From positions 121,970-139,573 of IMG/VR virus record IMGVR_UViG_3300021400_000219: a DNA stretch of 17,604 nucleotides. The stretch is one strand, 5' to 3'. Source of the DNA: a virus. A program made the translations under genes and the position numbers. Below, one piece after another: positions 1 through 17,604 of this stretch. The notes under the pieces are model-generated. The model made no database searches and was not told the DNA's origin. It saw only the letters and a program-made list of their open reading frames with translations. Every line of letters starts with the position of its first letter. Position 1 is the first letter of the stretch.

Positions 1-367
1 CTTCATCAAATACAGTCTGACTAGCGTTAGTGATAGCCTTGGAAATTTCAGAAGCAAAGTCAACTACATCATCAGTCAGAATATTATCCAGATATTCATC
101 AGTGACAAACTTTGCAGCGGGGTCATCATCAATAGCTCGCAGTGCCTTCATGCTTGCGAGCAGGAGCTTCTTCATCTTATCTCTATCACTGGCCGCATCC
201 TCTTCCTTCTTTCTCTTGGCTTCAGCCTCTTCCCTATGATACTGTGCCTTGGCAATAGCGATTGCATCTTCAACAGAATCTTCAATAGCAACTACAGCAT
301 AACCCTCTCTAAAAGCTTCAAGCAGAACAGGAGTAAGCTTTGCAGTCAATTCATATCTATCAATCAT
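1..367 (-). CDS. hypothetical protein, N-terminal part (gene runs off left edge)
   Basis: Open at the window edge, so absent from the ORF track. The reverse strand from ATG 367-365 reads MIDRYELTAKLTPVLLEAFREGYAVVAIEDSVEDAIAIAKAQYHREEAEAKRKKEED... with no stop to position 1. GAAAGGA SD upstream; own promoter at 402-430. Confidence 0.7.
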   Translation of the reverse strand, partial: MIDRYELTAKLTPVLLEAFREGYAVVAIEDSVEDAIAIAKAQYHREEAEAKRKKEEDAASDRDKMKKLLLASMKALRAIDDDPAAKFVTDEYLDNILTDDVVDFASEISKAITNASQTVFDE

Positions 368-401
368 TTATTTATCATATCCTTTCTCATTTTCTATATA
401 T

Positions 402-430
402 ATTATAACAAAAATTTTTTTGAAAATCAA
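402..430 (-). promoter_or_regulatory. sigma-A/70-type promoter, AT-rich subclass
   Basis: Minus strand TTGATT-N17-TATAAT with TGT extension; about 30 nt 5' of CDS <1..367. Confidence 0.6.
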
Positions 431-581
431 TAAAAACATTTAAAAAGGTAGTGAAATTGCCGAGCAAGATTTTCTCACGGAGAAACACTCATAAAGAGGT
501 AAAACGATATTAAATTGTAGGTTAAAAATGAAGCTTGGTAATCACCCCAGAGCAACCTCAGAAACGAGAAAATTTGAGGAT

Positions 582-610
582 TTGCTTTTTATAAAAATAT
601 ATAGTATAAT
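582..610 (+). promoter_or_regulatory. candidate plus-strand promoter
   Basis: TTGCTT-N17-TATAAT followed by ATAAATGGGGG. The other plus-strand promoters in the window show the same -10 then GGGG(G) context. Confidence 0.35.
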
Positions 611-710
611 ATAAATGGGGGTAGTATCTTTACCGAGCACGTGGATTAGTATAATATACTATTTAATTAAATAAAATAACGTATAAAGTTTAGTTAAAAA
701 GTTATTTAAT

Positions 711-739
711 TTGATTTATTTTATTAAATATTTTATAAT
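711..739 (+). promoter_or_regulatory. candidate plus-strand promoter
   Basis: TTGATT-N17-TATAAT followed by ATAATGGGGA. Confidence 0.35.
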
Positions 740-753
740 ATAATGGGGAAATA

Positions 754-778
754 TTATTATTTTTTTAAAAAATAATAA
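754..778. repeat. perfect A/T-only inverted repeat
   Basis: TTATTATTTTTT (754-765), then T, then AAAAAATAATAA (767-778); 12-bp arms. Confidence 0.85.
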
Positions 779-822
779 AAATATCTAAGTATTATTATAT
801 ATAATAATATCTTTTTTATTTT

Positions 823-851
823 ATTATACCAAAAATTTTTTTAAAAATCAA
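823..851 (-). promoter_or_regulatory. sigma-A/70-type promoter, AT-rich subclass
   Basis: Minus strand TTGATT-N17-TATAAT with TGG extension. No ORF follows; it reads into the AT-rich region. Confidence 0.5.
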
Positions 852-862
852 ATTTTTTTGTG

Positions 863-876
863 TTTCCGATCGGAAA
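863..876. repeat. perfect 14-bp palindrome TTTCCGATCGGAAA
   Basis: Read directly; lies between tandem promoters 894-922 and 823-851. Confidence 0.85.
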
Positions 877-893
877 AAATAGTTTTTTTTAAT

Positions 894-922
894 ATTATAA
901 CATATTTTTTTATGAAAATCAA
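894..922 (-). promoter_or_regulatory. sigma-A/70-type promoter, AT-rich subclass
   Basis: Minus strand TTGATT-N17-TATAAT with TGT extension. Confidence 0.5.
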
Positions 923-938
923 ATCGGTAATAGGTGCG

Positions 939-1173
939 CGTGTGAGCTAAAACCGTGCATATGGGGTGTTGTTAAACCGGTCGGATTTGTGTTAGAAAAA
1001 GTTGCATATGAGATTGTGTTTTCGGGATTCGCGGGGGCGGCGCTGAAAGCCACTCGTGTGAGCAAAATTTTTGCATATGGGGGTCTTGTTCGGGCGCGCG
1101 GAAACGCCGCCAGCACACGCCCGTGCGCCGGCGGTTCAAGGTGTGCCCTATTATGAGGGGTAAGCGTGTGAGC
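939..1173. repeat. iteron-like direct repeats in a GC-rich island
   Basis: CGTGTGAGC at 939-947, 1055-1063 and 1165-1173. TGCATATG(G/A)G at 956-963, 1003-1010 and 1072-1079. CTTTAAAG palindromes around 1196-1220. Confidence 0.6.
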
Positions 1174-1255
1174 CCTTATAGCCTTAAAGGTATAAAGCTT
1201 TAAAGCTTTAAAGGTCTAGTTTTGCCCGGGCGAATTAGCGCAGGCTAACCGCAGG

Positions 1256-1292
1256 TAAAAATTAAACCCCCAGGGGTTTGGACCCCCTGGGG
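1256..1292 (-). terminator. intrinsic terminator
   Basis: Minus strand CCCCAGGGG-N7-CCCCTGGGG (1268-1292) followed by GTTTAATTTTT; ends the mini-ORF transcript. Confidence 0.7.
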
Positions 1293-1337
1293 TAGGACCA
1301 TTTTTTGGCAGGTTGGTGTCCCTTCCACCTACGCTTG

Positions 1338-1361
1338 TTAAATAAATCCAGTAGGATACAT
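1338..1361 (-). CDS. 7-codon mini-ORF MYPTGFI (candidate micro-peptide or leader peptide)
   Basis: ATGTATCCTACTGGATTTATTTAA preceded by GGAGGTGATACC; tandem paralog of 1423..1446. Confidence 0.3.
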   Translation of the reverse strand: MYPTGFI

Positions 1362-16479: not shown

Positions 16480-16509
16480 TTTGTTTTCCTCCTTTGTTTT
16501 ACTGTAATC

Positions 16510-16537
16510 ATTATACCATACTTTTGGAATTTGTCAA
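16510..16537 (-). promoter_or_regulatory. sigma-A/70-type promoter
   Basis: Minus TTGACA-N16-TATAAT (TGG-extended). Confidence 0.7.
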
Positions 16538-16557
16538 GAGGTTTTTTCAAATTTCCC

Positions 16558-16591
16558 GGAAAATCTTTTGAGAGGGTTTCCCCTCTCAAAA
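16558..16591 (-). terminator. stop-codon-containing hairpin / probable terminator
   Basis: Minus TTTTGAGAGGG-GAAA-CCCTCTCAAAA followed by GATTTTCC; 11-bp stem with a GNRA loop. Confidence 0.6.
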
Positions 16592-16807
16592 AATGTTTAC
16601 CATTTCAGGCTTTACCATCTCAACAGGAAGGAAACAACCGCTTTTGCAGTAAACTTCTTGTTTCACGTTTCCATCTTTGATAACCAGACGATACACGCCG
16701 CAGGTTCTTCCAGCCGCTTCCATTTTTGCTTGTTTCCAAGCTTTTCCAAAAGCTGCAGTATCCTCAAACTCAAACCCCGCAACCTGATAAACAAACTTCT
16801 TAGCCAT
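16586..16807 (-). CDS. hypothetical protein (73 aa)
   Basis: ORF track; AAGGAAAGGGG SD. Confidence 0.85.
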   Translation of the reverse strand: MAKKFVYQVAGFEFEDTAAFGKAWKQAKMEAAGRTCGVYRLVIKDGNVKQEVYCKSGCFLPVEMVKPEMVNIF

Positions 16808-16839
16808 TTTAATGACCCCTTTCCTTAATTTCTATATTT

Positions 16840-16868
16840 ATTATAGCATCCTGTAAGCTATTTGTCTA
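16840..16868 (-). promoter_or_regulatory. sigma-A/70-type promoter, class C (divergent)
   Basis: Minus TAGACA-N17-TATAAT (TGC-extended); TTGCACAAAAA at 16877-16887. Confidence 0.6.
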
Positions 16869-16915
16869 TTGGTAAATTGCACAAAAAAGTTTTTGATTTT
16901 TGGGCATTTTTACTC

Positions 16916-16944
16916 TTGACATTCGCTGTAAATTGTGGTAAAAT
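16916..16944 (+). promoter_or_regulatory. plus-strand promoter facing a GC-rich island
   Basis: TTGACA-N17-TAAAAT (TGG-extended) followed by AAAATGGGGAG. Confidence 0.6.
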
Positions 16945-16950
16945 AAAATG

Positions 16951-17076
16951 GGGAGCTGTTGTTCGCGCGCGCCGAAGGCCGTTAGCGGCCGCTAACCGGG
17001 TGTGCGTGTGCGCACCTTTATAGCTTTAATGGGTTAAAGTAACCGGGTAAAAAAGAGAAGGACTTTTCAGTCCTTC
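16951..17076 (+). ncRNA. candidate small RNA / GC-rich island, copy B
   Basis: GGGGAGCTGTTGTTCGCGCGCGCCGAAGGCCGTTAGCGGCCGCTAACCGGGTGTGCGTGTGCGCACCTTTATAGC... Includes the 16-bp palindrome GTTAGCGGCCGCTAAC (16981-16996) and a 16-nt alternating purine-pyrimidine run (17000-17015). Confidence 0.3.
17046..17076 (-). terminator. intrinsic terminator containing the stop codon
   Basis: Minus GAAGGACT-GAAA-AGTCCTTC followed by TCTTTTTTACC; the stop codon (17067-17069) spans the loop and the first base of the 3' arm. Confidence 0.75.
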
Positions 17077-17294
17077 ATCCCCATTTCTACGAAAACTTCA
17101 AAGCCTTCAAAGTAGTAAGTCCGCCATTCGCCTTCAAATTCAATTTCTTCCCGCTCCGCCATTTCAGACAGAACTACTTCAACTTCCTGCAAGGCCCGCC
17201 ATTCTGCAGCATCACCATCAAACCGAACTGCTACAACACCATCTTCAAACTCAACCTCAAAAGCTTCCAGCATTTCAAGAATCATTTCTAACAT
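17067..17294 (-). CDS. small extremely acidic protein (75 aa)
   Basis: ORF track; AGAAAGGAAA SD. 23 D/E versus 5 K/R by count. Confidence 0.85.
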   Translation of the reverse strand: MLEMILEMLEAFEVEFEDGVVAVRFDGDAAEWRALQEVEVVLSEMAEREEIEFEGEWRTYYFEGFEVFVEMGMKD

Positions 17295-17346
17295 TGTTTT
17301 ATTTCCTTTCTGGTTTGTTGGGTTTTCCTTCCCTCTTTCTGATTAT

Positions 17347-17374
17347 AGTATAGCATAAATTCCCGGAAAGTCAA
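17347..17374 (-). promoter_or_regulatory. sigma-A/70-type promoter (divergent partner of 17433-17462)
   Basis: Minus TTGACT-N16-TATACT (TGC-extended). Confidence 0.7.
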
Positions 17375-17432
17375 GAGTTTTTTACAGAAAAGTTGTACAA
17401 ATGCCGCACACATTTTTTGTACAGTTTGTCTA

Positions 17433-17462
17433 TTGACTTTTTTCTCTTGGATGTGATACAAT
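17433..17462 (+). promoter_or_regulatory. plus-strand promoter followed by a T26 tract
   Basis: TTGACT-N18-TACAAT (TGA-extended), then GAAGGGGGATTC and T26; homologous to 15591-15651. Confidence 0.55.
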
Positions 17463-17474
17463 GAAGGGGGATTC

Positions 17475-17500
17475 TTTTTTTTTTTTTTTTTTTTTTTTTA
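17475..17500. repeat. homopolymer T26 (A26 on the gene strand)
   Basis: Counted directly from the sequence. Confidence 0.95.
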
Positions 17501-17546
17501 AAGGGTTGCGCAAACCAACCCTCCGGGGAAAAGAGAAAAGGATTTT

Positions 17547-17604
17547 TCACCCTTTTTCTCCATCCCCATTACGTTTTAAAAGTTTTTGCCACTTTACATA
17601 ATAC
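17547..17604 (-). CDS. hypothetical protein, C-terminal 18 codons (gene starts beyond right edge)
   Basis: The reverse strand reads ...YYVKWQKLLKRNGDGEKG then TGA at 17549-17547. The stop sits in a GAGAAAAGG..CCTTTTTCTC hairpin loop, as in the other cassettes. Confidence 0.45.
   Translation of the reverse strand, partial: YYVKWQKLLKRNGDGEKG

What the first reader, a model, noticed from the sequence alone, without database searches (positions are those of the whole stretch)
1..17604. One-gene-one-promoter cassette array: 37 same-strand consensus promoters in 17.6 kb
On the minus strand almost every tiny ORF, or ATGA-coupled ORF pair, has its own TTGACA-N16/17-TATAAT or TATACT promoter, usually TGn-extended. 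Several share a conserved 5'UTR: CCTTTCTGGTTTG..GGTTTTCCTTCC on the plus strand at about 2090-2125, 14300-14340 and 17305-17340. Each has a strong SD and a 3' hairpin. That is about one promoter per 0.5 kb, with genes of 34-154 aa (one of 230 aa), which is far from ordinary operon organisation. Known analogues are the SPO1 host-takeover module (many small early genes with many strong early promoters) and the PeSL promoter-early/stem-loop cassettes that flank ORFans in hyperplastic regions of T4-type phages. I recognise no sequence from either, so this looks like an independent and more regular version of a shuffle-able regulatory-cassette system.
Basis: partly seen in the sequence, partly recalled or inferred. 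Interest (0 to 1): 0.8.

Follow-up and report, generated by a model that had tools for sequence, protein, structure and literature searches.

The report
Shuffling promoter-gene cassettes in a rumen phage
This stretch of an uncultured rumen phage holds about 36 tiny gene units that all point the same way, each with its own near-perfect bacterial promoter and a hairpin plus a CCCGGG "linker" at its end, and close relatives have gained, lost and moved whole units at exactly those joints.

Summary
The minus strand carries 34-36 near-consensus TTGACA-N16/17-TGnTATAAT promoters, against 0.2 expected and 5 on the other strand. The three shared 5'UTRs, the strong ribosome-binding sites and the gene sizes are confirmed. 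CCCGGG occurs 22 times (1.5 expected), only inside the array. Nineteen copies lie 1-4 nt after a stable hairpin and 20-50 nt before the next promoter. The window comes from a large rumen phage (contigs of 136-174 kb). Its clade includes phAss-1 and Enterococcus phages H1 and EF1, and all relatives examined show the same dense promoter array. Twenty near-identical contigs give at least 14 different cassette orders and no inversions. Homology breakpoints avoid ORF interiors (11 against 45 expected) and pile up at CCCGGG, start codons and stop codons. Eight of nine printed junction alignments lose homology exactly at the linker. Promoter and 5'UTR modules are shared between unrelated genes. The best reading is an early, host-takeover-type region built from mobile promoter-terminator cassettes. 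It works like the PeSL elements of T4-type phages but arose independently in a Firmicutes-type phage lineage. Promoter activity and the role of CCCGGG are untested. Ten promoters drive no ORF.

The parts
17067..17374 (-). Cassette: -35 at 17374-17369, spacer 16, -10 at 17352-17347; shared 5'UTR at 17332-17305; g01 (75 aa) at 17294-17067; hairpin with T-run at 17076-17057
16586..16868 (-). Cassette: -35 at 16868-16863 (TAGACA), -10 at 16845-16840; TTGTGCAA box at 16884-16877; g02 (73 aa) at 16807-16586
16150..16537 (-). Cassette: -35 at 16537-16532, -10 at 16515-16510; g03 (109 aa, N-terminal signal-peptide-like segment) at 16479-16150; hairpin with T-run at 16164-16139
15706..16088 (-). Cassette: -35 at 16088-16083, -10 at 16065-16060; g04 (106 aa) at 16026-15706; 3' hairpin followed by linker CCCGGG at 15696-15691
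15023..15546 (-). Cassette: -35 at 15546-15541, -10 at 15524-15519; g05 (154 aa, HAD/NT5C-type 5'-deoxyribonucleotidase) at 15487-15023; 3' hairpin followed by CCCGGG at 15002-14997
14845..14951 (-). Cassette without an ORF: TGTAACC direct repeats, -35 at 14951-14946, -10 at 14929-14924, then a GC-rich transcript of about 70 nt
14610..14814 (-). Cassette: -35 at 14814-14809, -10 at 14792-14787; g06 (48 aa) at 14756-14610
14386..14591 (-). Cassette: -35 at 14591-14586, -10 at 14568-14563; g07 (47 aa) at 14529-14386
14159..14371 (-). Cassette: -35 at 14371-14366 lying in the loop of the GGG-TTGACAA-ACCC hairpin, -10 at 14348-14343; shared 5'UTR at 14328-14301; g08 (43 aa) at 14290-14159
13830..13965 (-). 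Weaker promoter (TAGACT-17-TGgTATTAT, about 13965-13937) followed by a GC-rich transcript of about 100 nt with no ORF
13541..13758 (-). Cassette: -35 at 13758-13753 in a hairpin loop, -10 at 13735-13730; g09 (52 aa) at 13699-13541. The CCCGGG at 13750-13745 lies inside the spacer and is not a linker
13168..13498 (-). Cassette without an ORF: -35 at 13498-13493, -10 at 13475-13470, then a GC-rich transcript of about 296 nt that ends in a hairpin with T-run at 13192-13175
12047..12550 (-). Cassette: -35 at 12550-12545, -10 at 12527-12522 (a CCCGGG lies in the spacer); g10 (147 aa) at 12490-12047; 3' hairpin followed by CCCGGG at 12037-12032
11486..11988 (-). Cassette: -35 at 11988-11983, -10 at 11965-11960; g11 (53 aa) at 11927-11766 and g12 (79 aa) at 11725-11486; hairpin followed by CCCGGG at 11470-11465
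10736..11418 (-). Cassette: TTGTGCAA-TTGCACAA palindrome at 11459-11443, -35 at 11418-11413, -10 at 11395-11390; g13 (149 aa, HAD/NT5C paralog) at 11341-10892 and g14 (50 aa) at 10888-10736
10150..10345 (-). CCCGGG at 10345-10340, TTGTGCAA box, -35 at 10253-10248, -10 at 10230-10225, then a transcript of about 70 nt with no ORF
9262..10102 (-). Cassette: -35 at 10102-10097, -10 at 10079-10074, 54-nt 5'UTR; g15 (124 aa, winged-helix paralog) at 10019-9645 and g16 (117 aa) at 9615-9262; hairpin followed by CCCGGG at 9227-9222
8650..9180 (-). Cassette: GGAAA..TTTCC repeat, -35 at 9180-9175, -10 at 9157-9152; g17 (55 aa, hydrophobic) at 9119-8952 overlapping g18 (101 aa) at 8955-8650; GTTAGC..GCTAAC hairpin followed by CCCGGG at 8635-8630
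8118..8588 (-). Cassette: -35 at 8588-8583, -10 at 8565-8560; g19 (125 aa) at 8495-8118; hairpin followed by CCCGGG at 8103-8098
7938..8047 (-). Cassette without an ORF: -35 at 8047-8042, -10 at 8024-8019, then a transcript of about 75 nt
7440..7908 (-). Cassette: -35 at 7908-7903, -10 at 7885-7880, 74-nt 5'UTR; g20 (121 aa, winged-helix paralog) at 7805-7440; terminator at 7452-7431, GTTAGC hairpin, CCCGGG at 7397-7392
7042..7350 (-). Cassette: -35 at 7350-7345, -10 at 7327-7322; g21 (79 aa) at 7281-7042, which sits between g24 and g25 in L014, L029 and L032; hairpin with the stop codon in its loop, then CCCGGG at 7029-7024
6648..7002 (-). Cassette: TGTAACC repeats, -35 at 7002-6997, -10 at 6980-6975; g22 (34 aa, hydrophobic) at 6945-6841 and g23 (59 aa, CxxC..CxxC) at 6827-6648; hairpin followed by CCCGGG at 6637-6632
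6116..6582 (-). Cassette: -35 at 6582-6577, -10 at 6559-6554; g24 (70 aa, GTG start) at 6504-6292 overlapping g25 (59 aa) at 6295-6116; hairpin followed by CCCGGG at 6101-6096
5717..6054 (-). Cassette: -35 at 6054-6049, -10 at 6031-6026; g26 (92 aa) at 5995-5717; hairpin followed by CCCGGG at 5706-5701
5171..5660 (-). Cassette: -35 at 5660-5655, -10 at 5637-5632; g27 (48 aa) at 5601-5455 overlapping g28 (95 aa) at 5458-5171; hairpin followed by CCCGGG at 5155-5150
4885..4988 (-). Cassette without an ORF: TTGTGCAA box at 5005-4998, -35 at 4988-4983 (TTGCAA), -10 at 4966-4961, then a transcript of about 70 nt whose sequence recurs in distant relative L001
4399..4859 (-). Cassette: -35 at 4859-4854, -10 at 4836-4831, 69-nt 5'UTR; g29 (120 aa, winged-helix paralog) at 4761-4399; terminator at 4393-4376, then CCCGGG at 4340-4335
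3700..4282 (-). Cassette: -35 at 4282-4277, -10 at 4259-4254; g30 (116 aa, paralog of g16) at 4229-3879 and g31 (44 aa, hydrophobic) at 3834-3700; GTTAGC hairpin followed by CCCGGG at 3678-3673
2699..3619 (-). Cassette: TTGTGCAA boxes at 3660-3629, -35 at 3619-3614 (TTGCAA), -10 at 3597-3592; g32 (230 aa, DEDD-type exonuclease) at 3536-2844 and g33 (46 aa) at 2839-2699; hairpin followed by CCCGGG at 2686-2681
2322..2657 (-). Cassette: TGTAACC repeats, -35 at 2657-2652, -10 at 2634-2629; g34 (91 aa) at 2597-2322; hairpin followed by CCCGGG at 2309-2304. This whole unit is missing in L014, from one CCCGGG to the next
2190..2261 (-). Orphan promoter module: -35 at 2261-2256, -10 at 2238-2233, with only about 37 nt before the next promoter's upstream tract
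1714..2161 (-). Cassette: -35 at 2161-2156, -10 at 2138-2133; shared 5'UTR at 2119-2092; g35 (122 aa, winged-helix paralog) at 2082-1714; terminator at 1725-1706, GTTAGC hairpin, CCCGGG at 1670-1665
1225..1621 (-). Cassette without a long ORF: -35 at 1621-1616, -10 at 1598-1593; a leader of about 320 nt with two 7-aa mini-ORFs at 1446-1423 and 1361-1338; strong terminator at 1292-1268; GTTAGC hairpin followed by the last CCCGGG at 1230-1225
823..922 (-). Two TTGATT-17-TGnTATAAT promoters (922-894 and 851-823) in the AT-rich non-coding stretch, with no ORF
1..430 (-). Cassette: -35 at 430-425, -10 at 407-402; g36 (at least 122 aa) starts at 367 and runs off the window

Best explanation
The window is almost the whole of an early-gene, host-takeover-type region of about 18 kb from a large uncultured rumen phage. 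Its clade includes phAss-1 and the roughly 140-kb Enterococcus phages H1 and EF1.

The region is a co-oriented array of about 36 expression cassettes. Each cassette has these parts, in order:
- an A/T-rich tract resembling an UP element, often with a short operator-like repeat (GGAAA..TTTCC, TGTAACC x2 or TTGTGCAA);
- a near-consensus, TG-extended sigma-A/sigma-70 promoter;
- a short 5'UTR with a strong ribosome-binding site;
- one or two small ORFs, or none;
- a stable hairpin that often holds the stop codon in its loop;
- a (C)CCGGG(C) linker directly after the hairpin.

Inferred function: unmodified host RNA polymerase fires all cassettes in parallel right after DNA entry. This gives high, independent expression of many small proteins (two deoxyribonucleotidases, an exonuclease, four winged-helix paralogs, small hydrophobic proteins) and several short RNAs.

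Shown by comparison: the repeated junction modules are where the array is remodelled. Cassettes are deleted, inserted, replaced, duplicated and relocated, but never inverted. Homology breaks at the CCCGGG linker, inside the promoter or 5'UTR module, at the start codon or at the stop codon. The absence of inversions and the direct-repeat geometry fit unequal recombination or template switching between directly repeated junction modules, with the hairpin plus GC-rich linker as the hottest joint.
For: - Promoter excess and strand bias.
- CCCGGG occurs 22 times against 1.5 expected. All copies lie inside the array and none in about 15 kb of flanks of the source scaffold.
- 19 of 22 copies lie 1-4 nt after a hairpin (mean dG -13.7 against -5.8 kcal/mol, p = 3e-7).
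- The linker lies 20-53 nt upstream of -35 at 17 promoters.
- Relatives: the exact exonuclease, nucleotidase, g19 and g10 proteins occur on many rumen contigs.
- At least 14 cassette orders among 20 contigs, with 0 inverted hits.
- 84 unique homology breakpoints: ORF interior 11 against 45.1 expected (p = 1e-14); within about 12 nt of CCCGGG 10 against 3.5; start codon 15 against 4.5; stop codon 12 against 3.5.
- Exact one-cassette deletion from CCCGGG to CCCGGG in L014.
- In eight of the nine printed junction alignments, homology is lost at or within a few nt of the linker.
- Regulatory modules are shared by unrelated genes and are themselves chimeric.
- The same architecture appears in distant relatives, in phAss-1 and in Enterococcus phage H1.
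- Gene content is typical of early regions.
- The PeSL precedent covers the mechanism (PMC2839356, PMC4122927).
Against: - No transcription data: consensus promoters can be silent. In Kayvirus, 23 of 58 predicted early promoters did not change the transcription profile (PMC7698491).
- The host is unknown.
- Most hairpins lack a U-run, so insulation between cassettes is unproven.
- Part of the breakpoint pattern (avoidance of ORF interiors) is what purifying selection alone would give.
- AT-rich relatives (L003-L008, H1) keep the array without CCCGGG, so the linker is not essential to the architecture.
- Ten promoters drive no ORF, which the 'expression cassette' reading does not explain.
Confidence: 0.7

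Rival explanations
1. The hairpin plus CCCGGG is first of all a transcription or RNA-level signal, and the recombination there is incidental. It could be a factor-dependent terminator or insulator, an RNA-processing or RNA-stabilising end, or the binding site of a phage or host protein that shuts the array off.
For: - The linker has a fixed place between the 3' hairpin and the UP-like tract.
- A related YCCGGGC motif sits in the same place in L001 and L002, whose exonuclease is only 59-63% identical to the window's.
- Four winged-helix paralogs are encoded in the array.
Against: - The motif is absent from the AT-rich relatives, which keep the array.
- Its distance to -35 varies from 20 to 53 nt here and is shorter in L001 and L002 (about 22-28 nt where I counted it by eye).
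- Nothing ties any encoded protein to it.
- This reading is compatible with the main explanation rather than exclusive of it.
Confidence: 0.3
2. The hairpin plus CCCGGG is a true site-specific recombination or cleavage site, in the manner of an integron attC site. A dedicated phage or host enzyme recognises it and cuts and joins cassettes there.
For: - Crossovers occur inside a shared core of only 6-9 bp while the flanks are unrelated.
- Per nucleotide, the linker is a hotter breakpoint than the much longer promoter homologies.
- The hairpin varies in sequence while the adjacent core stays constant.
- T4 deletion endpoints were reported at GGGC/GCCC inverted repeats (Mosig 1998, as cited in PMC2839356).
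Against: - No integrase or recombinase family is recorded on any gene within 7-10 kb on either side.
- Orthologous sites tolerate CCCGGA, ACCGGGC and TCCGGGC.
- A palindromic cut site should sometimes invert cassettes, and none is inverted.
- Most breakpoints lie elsewhere in the junctions.
Confidence: 0.12
3. This is an ordinary phage early region with many strong promoters. Rearrangements arise by random illegitimate recombination, and selection keeps only those that fall between genes, so there is no special shuffling substrate.
For: - Depletion of breakpoints in ORF interiors is expected under selection alone.
- Clusters of strong early promoters are known in SPO1, Kayvirus and T5 (T5 from my own knowledge).
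Against: - Selection does not explain why breaks fall on the 6-bp linker rather than anywhere in the 30-100 nt of spacer.
- It does not explain why unrelated genes carry 82-94% identical promoter or 5'UTR segments in chimeric combinations.
- It does not explain why no inversion is seen.
Confidence: 0.15
4. The cassette diversity is an artefact of metagenome assembly, in which contigs are joined wrongly at repeated junction modules.
For: Junction modules are repeated and the contigs come from short-read assemblies.
Against: - The identity shared at the linker joints is only 6-9 bp, which from my own knowledge is far below the k-mer sizes assemblers normally use.
- The same variant orders recur in independent samples and studies: g19 followed directly by g29 in five contigs from different records, and g21 placed after g24 in L014, L029 and L032.
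Confidence: 0.02

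Closest known systems
PeSL (promoter-early stem-loop) cassettes of T4-type myoviruses (Arbiol et al. 2010, PMC2839356; Comeau et al. 2014, PMC4122927)
   Same: - Composite intergenic elements: a strong sigma-70-type promoter with an A/T-rich upstream tract plus a G/C-rich stem-loop.
- They flank small genes, mostly of unknown function, in a hyperplastic region.
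- Insertions, deletions and replacements between close relatives have endpoints in the elements: between -10 and ATG, in or beside the stem-loop, or in the A/T tract.
- In relatives (H1, phAss-1) and at 14371 and 13758 here, the -35 lies in the hairpin loop, which is one of the PeSL subclasses.
   Different: - Unrelated phage lineage, likely with a Firmicutes host, and no sequence similarity.
- Far denser and more regular: 36 promoters in 17.6 kb, all co-oriented.
- A discrete CCCGGG linker directly after the hairpin marks many exact crossovers.
- Ten cassettes carry no ORF.
- Promoter and terminator activity and mini-circles, shown for PeSLs, are untested here.
SPO1 host-takeover module and the early-promoter sets of Herelleviridae such as Kayvirus (PMC6873191; PMC7698491)
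   Same: A cluster of small early genes of a large lytic Firmicutes phage, driven by many consensus TTGACA / TGnTATAAT host-type promoters. Their likely role is to redirect the host right after infection.
   Different: - No homology to SPO1 proteins was looked for beyond PHROG and Pfam scans of ten proteins.
- Promoter density is about five times the genome-wide Kayvirus figure (58 promoters for 238 ORFs).
- No phage sigma factor or terminal-repeat location was established here.
- Cassette shuffling at conserved linkers is not a described property of those modules.
Integron gene-cassette arrays
   Same: A co-oriented array of small mobile gene units. Each is bounded by an imperfect hairpin of variable sequence next to a short conserved core at which crossovers fall.
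   Different: - No integrase nearby.
- Every cassette has its own promoter, whereas integron cassettes are promoterless.
- The core is a different sequence.
- Many breakpoints lie outside the core.
Pre-early (first-step-transfer) region of phage T5 (from my own knowledge, not checked here)
   Same: A large siphovirus with very strong host-type early promoters and a 5'-deoxyribonucleotidase among the first genes expressed.
   Different: No sequence relationship was tested, and no evidence was obtained here for a terminal-repeat location or two-step DNA transfer.

Membership tests
PeSL regulatory cassettes (T4-type phages) | Strong sigma-70-like promoter consensus with an A/T-rich tract upstream of -35 | tested here: met
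   36 promoters with the consensus tTGACAAAt-N-T.TG.TATAaT and A/T tracts at -40 to -60
PeSL regulatory cassettes (T4-type phages) | Adjacent stable stem-loop in the same intergenic element | tested here: met
   19 of 22 linkers are preceded by a hairpin, mean dG -13.7 kcal/mol. The -35 lies in a hairpin loop at 14371 and 13758 and in phage H1 and phAss-1
PeSL regulatory cassettes (T4-type phages) | The elements flank small genes of mostly unknown function in a region that varies between close relatives | tested here: met
   Of the 10 largest proteins, 1 had a Pfam hit. At least 14 cassette orders occur among 20 contigs
PeSL regulatory cassettes (T4-type phages) | Endpoints of insertions, deletions and replacements lie inside the elements | tested here: met
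   Breakpoint statistics and explicit junction alignments
PeSL regulatory cassettes (T4-type phages) | Promoter and terminator activity shown in reporters, and mini-circles detected by inverse PCR | not testable with these tools
   Needs wet-lab work or read-level data
PeSL regulatory cassettes (T4-type phages) | Carried by a T4-type myovirus, with a shared PeSL sequence family | tested here: not met
   No DNA match in the phage collection. The nearest annotated relatives are phAss-1 and Enterococcus phages H1 and EF1; PMC10607447 describes phAss-1 as siphovirus-like. The window therefore works like a PeSL but is not a member by descent
SPO1-type host-takeover module | Cluster of small early genes behind many host-type promoters | tested here: met
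SPO1-type host-takeover module | Location in the terminal redundancy, and expression in the first minutes of infection | tested here: inconclusive
   The array is internal in the 174-kb and 171-kb scaffolds. Genome ends are unknown and there are no expression data
SPO1-type host-takeover module | Homology to SPO1 gp37-gp60 | not tested
   Only Pfam and PHROG scans of ten proteins were run, and none named an SPO1 family
Integron | Tyrosine-recombinase integrase next to the array | tested here: not met
   No such Pfam family is recorded on any called gene within 7-10 kb on either side
Integron | Promoterless cassettes expressed from one common promoter | tested here: not met
   Nearly every cassette has its own consensus promoter

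The most novel reading that the evidence does not exclude
The variable hairpin plus the constant gCCC-GGGc core is a dedicated recombination signal, a phage counterpart of attC. A so far unidentified phage or host protein acts on it. That would make the array a natural plug-and-play system in which self-expressing gene cassettes are excised, perhaps as circles, and re-inserted at any linker, within and between co-infecting phages.
Probability: 0.12. Interest if true: 0.85.

Novelty: new variant of a known kind. Interest (0 to 1): 0.62.

Why it matters
The authors of the PeSL papers wrote that there was no evidence for this kind of cassette shuffling outside T4-type phages (PMC2839356). A search of the paper library for 'PeSL' from 2015 on listed phage papers only on Gram-negative phages, a cyanophage and a jumbo-phage review.

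This window shows the same logic in an unrelated clade of large gut and rumen phages, in a much more regular form and with many natural variants already sequenced. That suggests promoter-terminator cassettes are a general, convergent way for large lytic phages to keep a fast-evolving set of accessory and host-takeover genes that can be swapped without disturbing their neighbours.

The clade contains cultured Enterococcus phages (H1, EF1, VRE9), so the architecture can be tested directly. The 36 graded natural promoter, 5'UTR and hairpin modules are also a ready-made parts list for expression in Firmicutes. The exact use of a 6-bp GC-rich linker beside a hairpin gives a concrete handle on how short-homology recombination is targeted in phage genomes.

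Tried and rejected
- DNA searches of the phage collection found no relative: the near search gave no match, and the distant search gave only 40-110-nt chance-like matches.
- Rfam gave nothing above noise at E up to 1, and no tRNA was found.
- Thermodynamic folding of seven ORF-less transcripts: five are no more stable than shuffles, and two short ones have z about -2.6. I make no claim of structured RNAs.
- I asked whether the TTGTGCAA box travels with the winged-helix paralog family across the clade. It does not: the box is enriched in L004, L007 and L009 but not in L001 or L002, which do carry the paralogs. That pairing is dropped.
- Reading CCCGGG as a restriction (SmaI/XmaI-type) target is disfavoured. 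Orthologous sites vary to CCCGGA, ACCGGGC and TCCGGGC, and L002 has the non-palindromic CCGGGC.
- The assembly-artefact reading is rejected, because the same variants recur in independent samples.
- I could not decide whether the array lies in a terminal repeat. It is internal in two long scaffolds and at a contig end in others, where contigs break at a poly-A run.
- The winged-helix assignment of the four paralogs rests on weak scores: PDB profile E about 0.08 and Foldseek E of 6.6e-3 or worse, although nearly all top hits are ArsR, MarR, BlaI or Fur type. DNA binding is inferred only.

Full report

Yes. The built-in scan finds 87 promoter-like sites against 32.4 +/- 6.6 in shuffles, and almost every site matching 11 or 12 of 12 hexamer positions is on the minus strand. 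With a stricter rule (at least 10 of 12 hexamer matches plus TG at -15/-14) there are 34 sites on the minus strand and 5 on the plus strand. Two hundred local shuffles gave a mean of 0.2 and a maximum of 4.

A curated list of 36 promoters aligns to aaa..ttt..AAaaa....tTGACAAAt-N-T.TG.TATAaT, and 34 of the 36 are TG-extended. A 37th, weaker site lies near 13965.

Three corrections apply:
- 18 promoters precede one ORF, 8 precede a coupled pair, and 10 precede no ORF.
- Most 3' hairpins have no U-run.

**2. The CCCGGG linker**

CCCGGG occurs 22 times where base composition predicts about 1.5. In about 33 kb of the nearly identical source scaffold (99.9% identical where it overlaps the window), all copies lie inside the array and none in roughly 15 kb of flanks. 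Two copies sit inside promoter spacers. The other 20 share one context: gene stop, hairpin, (c)g-CCCGGG-c/t, a short repeat, an A/T tract, then -35.

Nineteen of the 22 are preceded within 1-4 nt by a stable hairpin. Mean dG is -13.7 kcal/mol against -5.8 for random 41-mers of the window (p = 3e-7). The stop codon often lies in the hairpin loop, and several stems are GTTAGC-N-GCTAAC. The stop-to-linker distance is mostly 9-21 nt. The linker-to-(-35) distance is 40-53 nt, or 21-23 nt in the TGTAACC class.

**3. Where the window comes from**

There is no DNA match in the phage collection. An exact-protein look-up finds the 230-aa exonuclease on eleven metagenome contigs. One of them, a 174-kb scaffold from ENA assembly ERZ28612966, is 100% identical to window 13536-1. 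Further look-ups with g05, g19 and g10 add about thirty more loci, including contigs of 136-171 kb.

Distant relatives in IMG/VR (exonuclease 54-63% identical, contigs of 18-140 kb) and in GenBank share the exonuclease, the HAD-type nucleotidase and the roughly 120-aa paralog family. The GenBank relatives are phAss-1, placed in the 'code 15 clade', and Enterococcus phages H1, EF1, EF5 and VRE9 of about 140 kb. The phAss-1 paper does not mention promoters (PMC10607447).

Every one of these relatives has the same dense, co-oriented set of consensus promoters with an A/T tract upstream:
- 19-41 promoters per 15-21-kb locus in L001-L008.
- 16 promoters in 7 kb of cultured phage H1, often with the -35 in the loop of the preceding hairpin.
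- The same -35-in-loop form in phAss-1.

A YCCGGGC motif in the linker position is present in L001 and L002. It is absent from the 28-33% GC relatives.

**4. Do cassettes move?**

Mapping the window's proteins onto 20 close relatives gives at least 14 different orders on a conserved backbone:
- g20-g28 are missing as a block in five contigs.
- g11, g22, g27, g31, g33 and g34 are each present or absent.
- g21 sits after g24 in three contigs from different studies.
- Extra g03-like and g06-like copies appear at new places.
- No hit is inverted.

Megablast against 26 close relatives gives 84 unique internal homology endpoints, distributed as follows:

| Location of endpoint | Observed | Expected | p |
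|---|---|---|---|
| ORF interior | 11 | 45.1 | 1e-14 |
| Within about 12 nt of CCCGGG | 10 | 3.5 | 0.0025 |
| At start codons | 15 | 4.5 | 4e-5 |
| Just after stop codons | 12 | 3.5 | 2e-4 |

At sequence level, L014 lacks exactly the unit from the CCCGGG at 2686 to the CCCGGG at 2309. In L010 and L013, different 3' modules are joined to the same downstream promoter at that linker. One search prints nine junction alignments, and in eight of them 91-97% identity on one side gives way to unrelated sequence at or within a few nt of the linker (2309 again, plus 7397, 15002, 8103, 2686, 6637, 5155 and 11470). The same variants recur in independent samples, and the shared core is only 6-9 bp, so assembly error is not a credible cause.

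**5. The regulatory modules are themselves mosaic**

Promoter-to-ATG segments of unrelated genes match each other:
- g03/g06: 82% over 79 nt.
- g22/g34: 86% over 71 nt.
- g21/g26: 87% over 60 nt.
- g01/g08: 94% over 54 nt (the shared 5'UTR).
- g01/g05: 90% over 48 nt (the core promoter).

One module can share its upstream part with one partner and its 5'UTR with another. Paralogous gene pairs differ in whether a promoter lies between them. g29 is followed by a hairpin, CCCGGG and promoter P4282 before g30, whereas g15 is followed directly by g16.

**6. Gene content**

The assignable genes are:
- g05 and g13, NT5C/HAD 5'-deoxyribonucleotidases (PHROG category 'host takeover').
- g32, a DEDD-type exonuclease.
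- g15, g20, g29 and g35, four paralogs. The AlphaFold model (pLDDT 84) ends in a winged helix that matches ArsR, MarR, BlaI and Fur-type regulators at weak scores.

Each of these four genes is preceded by an ORF-less promoter unit and then its own promoter with a long 5'UTR. The remaining genes are small proteins of unknown function. By eye, three are hydrophobic, one has a signal-peptide-like start and one has a CxxC..CxxC motif.

**7. How it most likely works**

Shown:
- The anatomy of the cassettes.
- Conservation of the architecture across the clade.
- Cassette turnover in nature, with joints at the linker, in the promoter or 5'UTR module, and at start and stop codons.
- The absence of inversions.

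Inferred:
- These are early promoters used by the unmodified host sigma-A polymerase.
- The array gives parallel, strong and largely independent expression of host-takeover and accessory functions.
- The directly repeated junction modules are substrates for unequal recombination or template switching. A hairpin followed by a GC-rich 6-9-bp repeat is a favourable spot for such events. The role of palindromes in stimulating short-repeat deletion is from my own knowledge.

The PeSL paper cites Mosig et al. (1998) as finding GGGC/GCCC inverted repeats at T4 deletion endpoints (PMC2839356). The linker here is exactly gCCC-GGGc. That is a lead, not a test.

**8. Comparison with what is known**

The closest system is the PeSL of T4-type phages: composite promoter plus stem-loop elements that flank genes of unknown function in hyperplastic regions and carry the crossover points. 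The window meets all four sequence-level PeSL criteria that can be tested here. It fails the phylogenetic one, because the phage lineage is unrelated and there is no sequence similarity. It therefore works like a PeSL array but is not a member by descent.

It also resembles the SPO1 and Kayvirus early or host-takeover promoter sets, but it is several times denser and has defined linkers. It is not an integron: there is no integrase nearby, and each cassette has its own promoter.

**9. Verdict**

It is a new variant of a known kind. The new points are:
- its occurrence outside T4-type phages;
- its extreme regularity;
- the hairpin-plus-CCCGGG linker that marks exact crossovers;
- the many ORF-less cassettes.

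The main gaps are transcription data, the identity of the host, and the function of the linker.

Noticed in passing
window 13168-12560: A non-coding hub of about 600 nt. It holds 8 of the window's 15 TTGTGCAA/TTGCACAA boxes (15 against 1.2 expected), a 25-nt palindrome TGACGAATCAGGATTTGATTCGTCA, and five tandem GTTAGC-N3-4-GCTAAC hairpins about 20 nt apart (12830-12733). It could be a regulatory hub or a replication or packaging site.
   Followed up: partly
window plus strand 5038-5066, 14008-14037, 15591-15619, 16916-16944, 17433-17462: Five consensus promoters fire against the array into very GC-rich segments of 90-100 nt. At least three of these are paralogous (GCGCGCG..GGCCGTTAGCGG..GTGTGCG) and run into the 3' hairpin of the converging gene. 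In L004, L007 and phAss-1, a similar GC-rich palindrome lies between two face-to-face promoters next to TTGTGCAA boxes.
   Followed up: partly
window 1590-1265: Promoter P1621 drives a leader of about 320 nt with no long ORF. It has two 7-codon mini-ORFs, each with a strong ribosome-binding site: MYYSGFT (1446-1423) and MYPTGFI (1361-1338). Each is followed by a similar segment of about 45 nt, and the leader ends at the strongest terminator of the window (1292-1268).
   Followed up: no
window 13932-13830 and 13463-13168: Two promoter-driven, ORF-less, GC-rich transcripts (more than 60% GC in a 42% GC window) share the motif GAAACGTGGGC.A.A..CCCCACAAAGTA.C.AGG.C..CCCC. There is no Rfam match, and their folding energy is not better than that of shuffles.
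   Followed up: partly
window 4954-4885 and L001 about 8840-8935: A short ORF-less transcript (..AGAGAGCCACTCCTTGAG.G.TAATGGTCGGTGTAAAATAATCCGAAAAAAGTTTTCAAAA..) is nearly identical in a relative whose exonuclease is only 63% identical. In the two phages it sits in front of different genes.
   Followed up: no
window 1230-440: An AT-rich (30% GC) non-coding stretch with three CCCCATATGCA-like repeats (near 1085, 1010 and 960) and two TTGATT-type promoters. L003 has a similar arrangement near 13560-13700. It is a candidate replication origin.
   Followed up: no
window about 17500-17465 and 15660-15640: A-runs of about 36 and 20 nt lie next to the plus-strand promoters. The 99.9%-identical scaffold differs from the window by 9 mismatches and 8 gaps, and the one stretch I compared shows a different A-run length. 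At least one contig ends at the 15650 run.
   Followed up: partly
window: upstream of P9180, P8588, P8047, P7350, P6582, P6054, P5660 and P1621 (GGAAA..TTTCC); P14951, P7002, P2657 and P2261 (TGTAACC x2); P16868, P11418, P10253, P4988, P4282 and P3619 (TTGTGCAA): At least three classes of short operator-like repeats lie between the linker and the UP-like tract, which suggests several regulators act on subsets of cassettes. All four winged-helix paralog genes use a fourth promoter class (..gaaaaaaCTCTTGACAAACCC..) that has no linker directly upstream.
   Followed up: partly
L025, L027 and L033 (about 6 kb beyond the window's low-coordinate end in relatives): A 217-aa GIY-YIG gene is present on the opposite strand in some relatives and absent from the source scaffold. 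It is a likely homing endonuclease that varies between strains.
   Followed up: no
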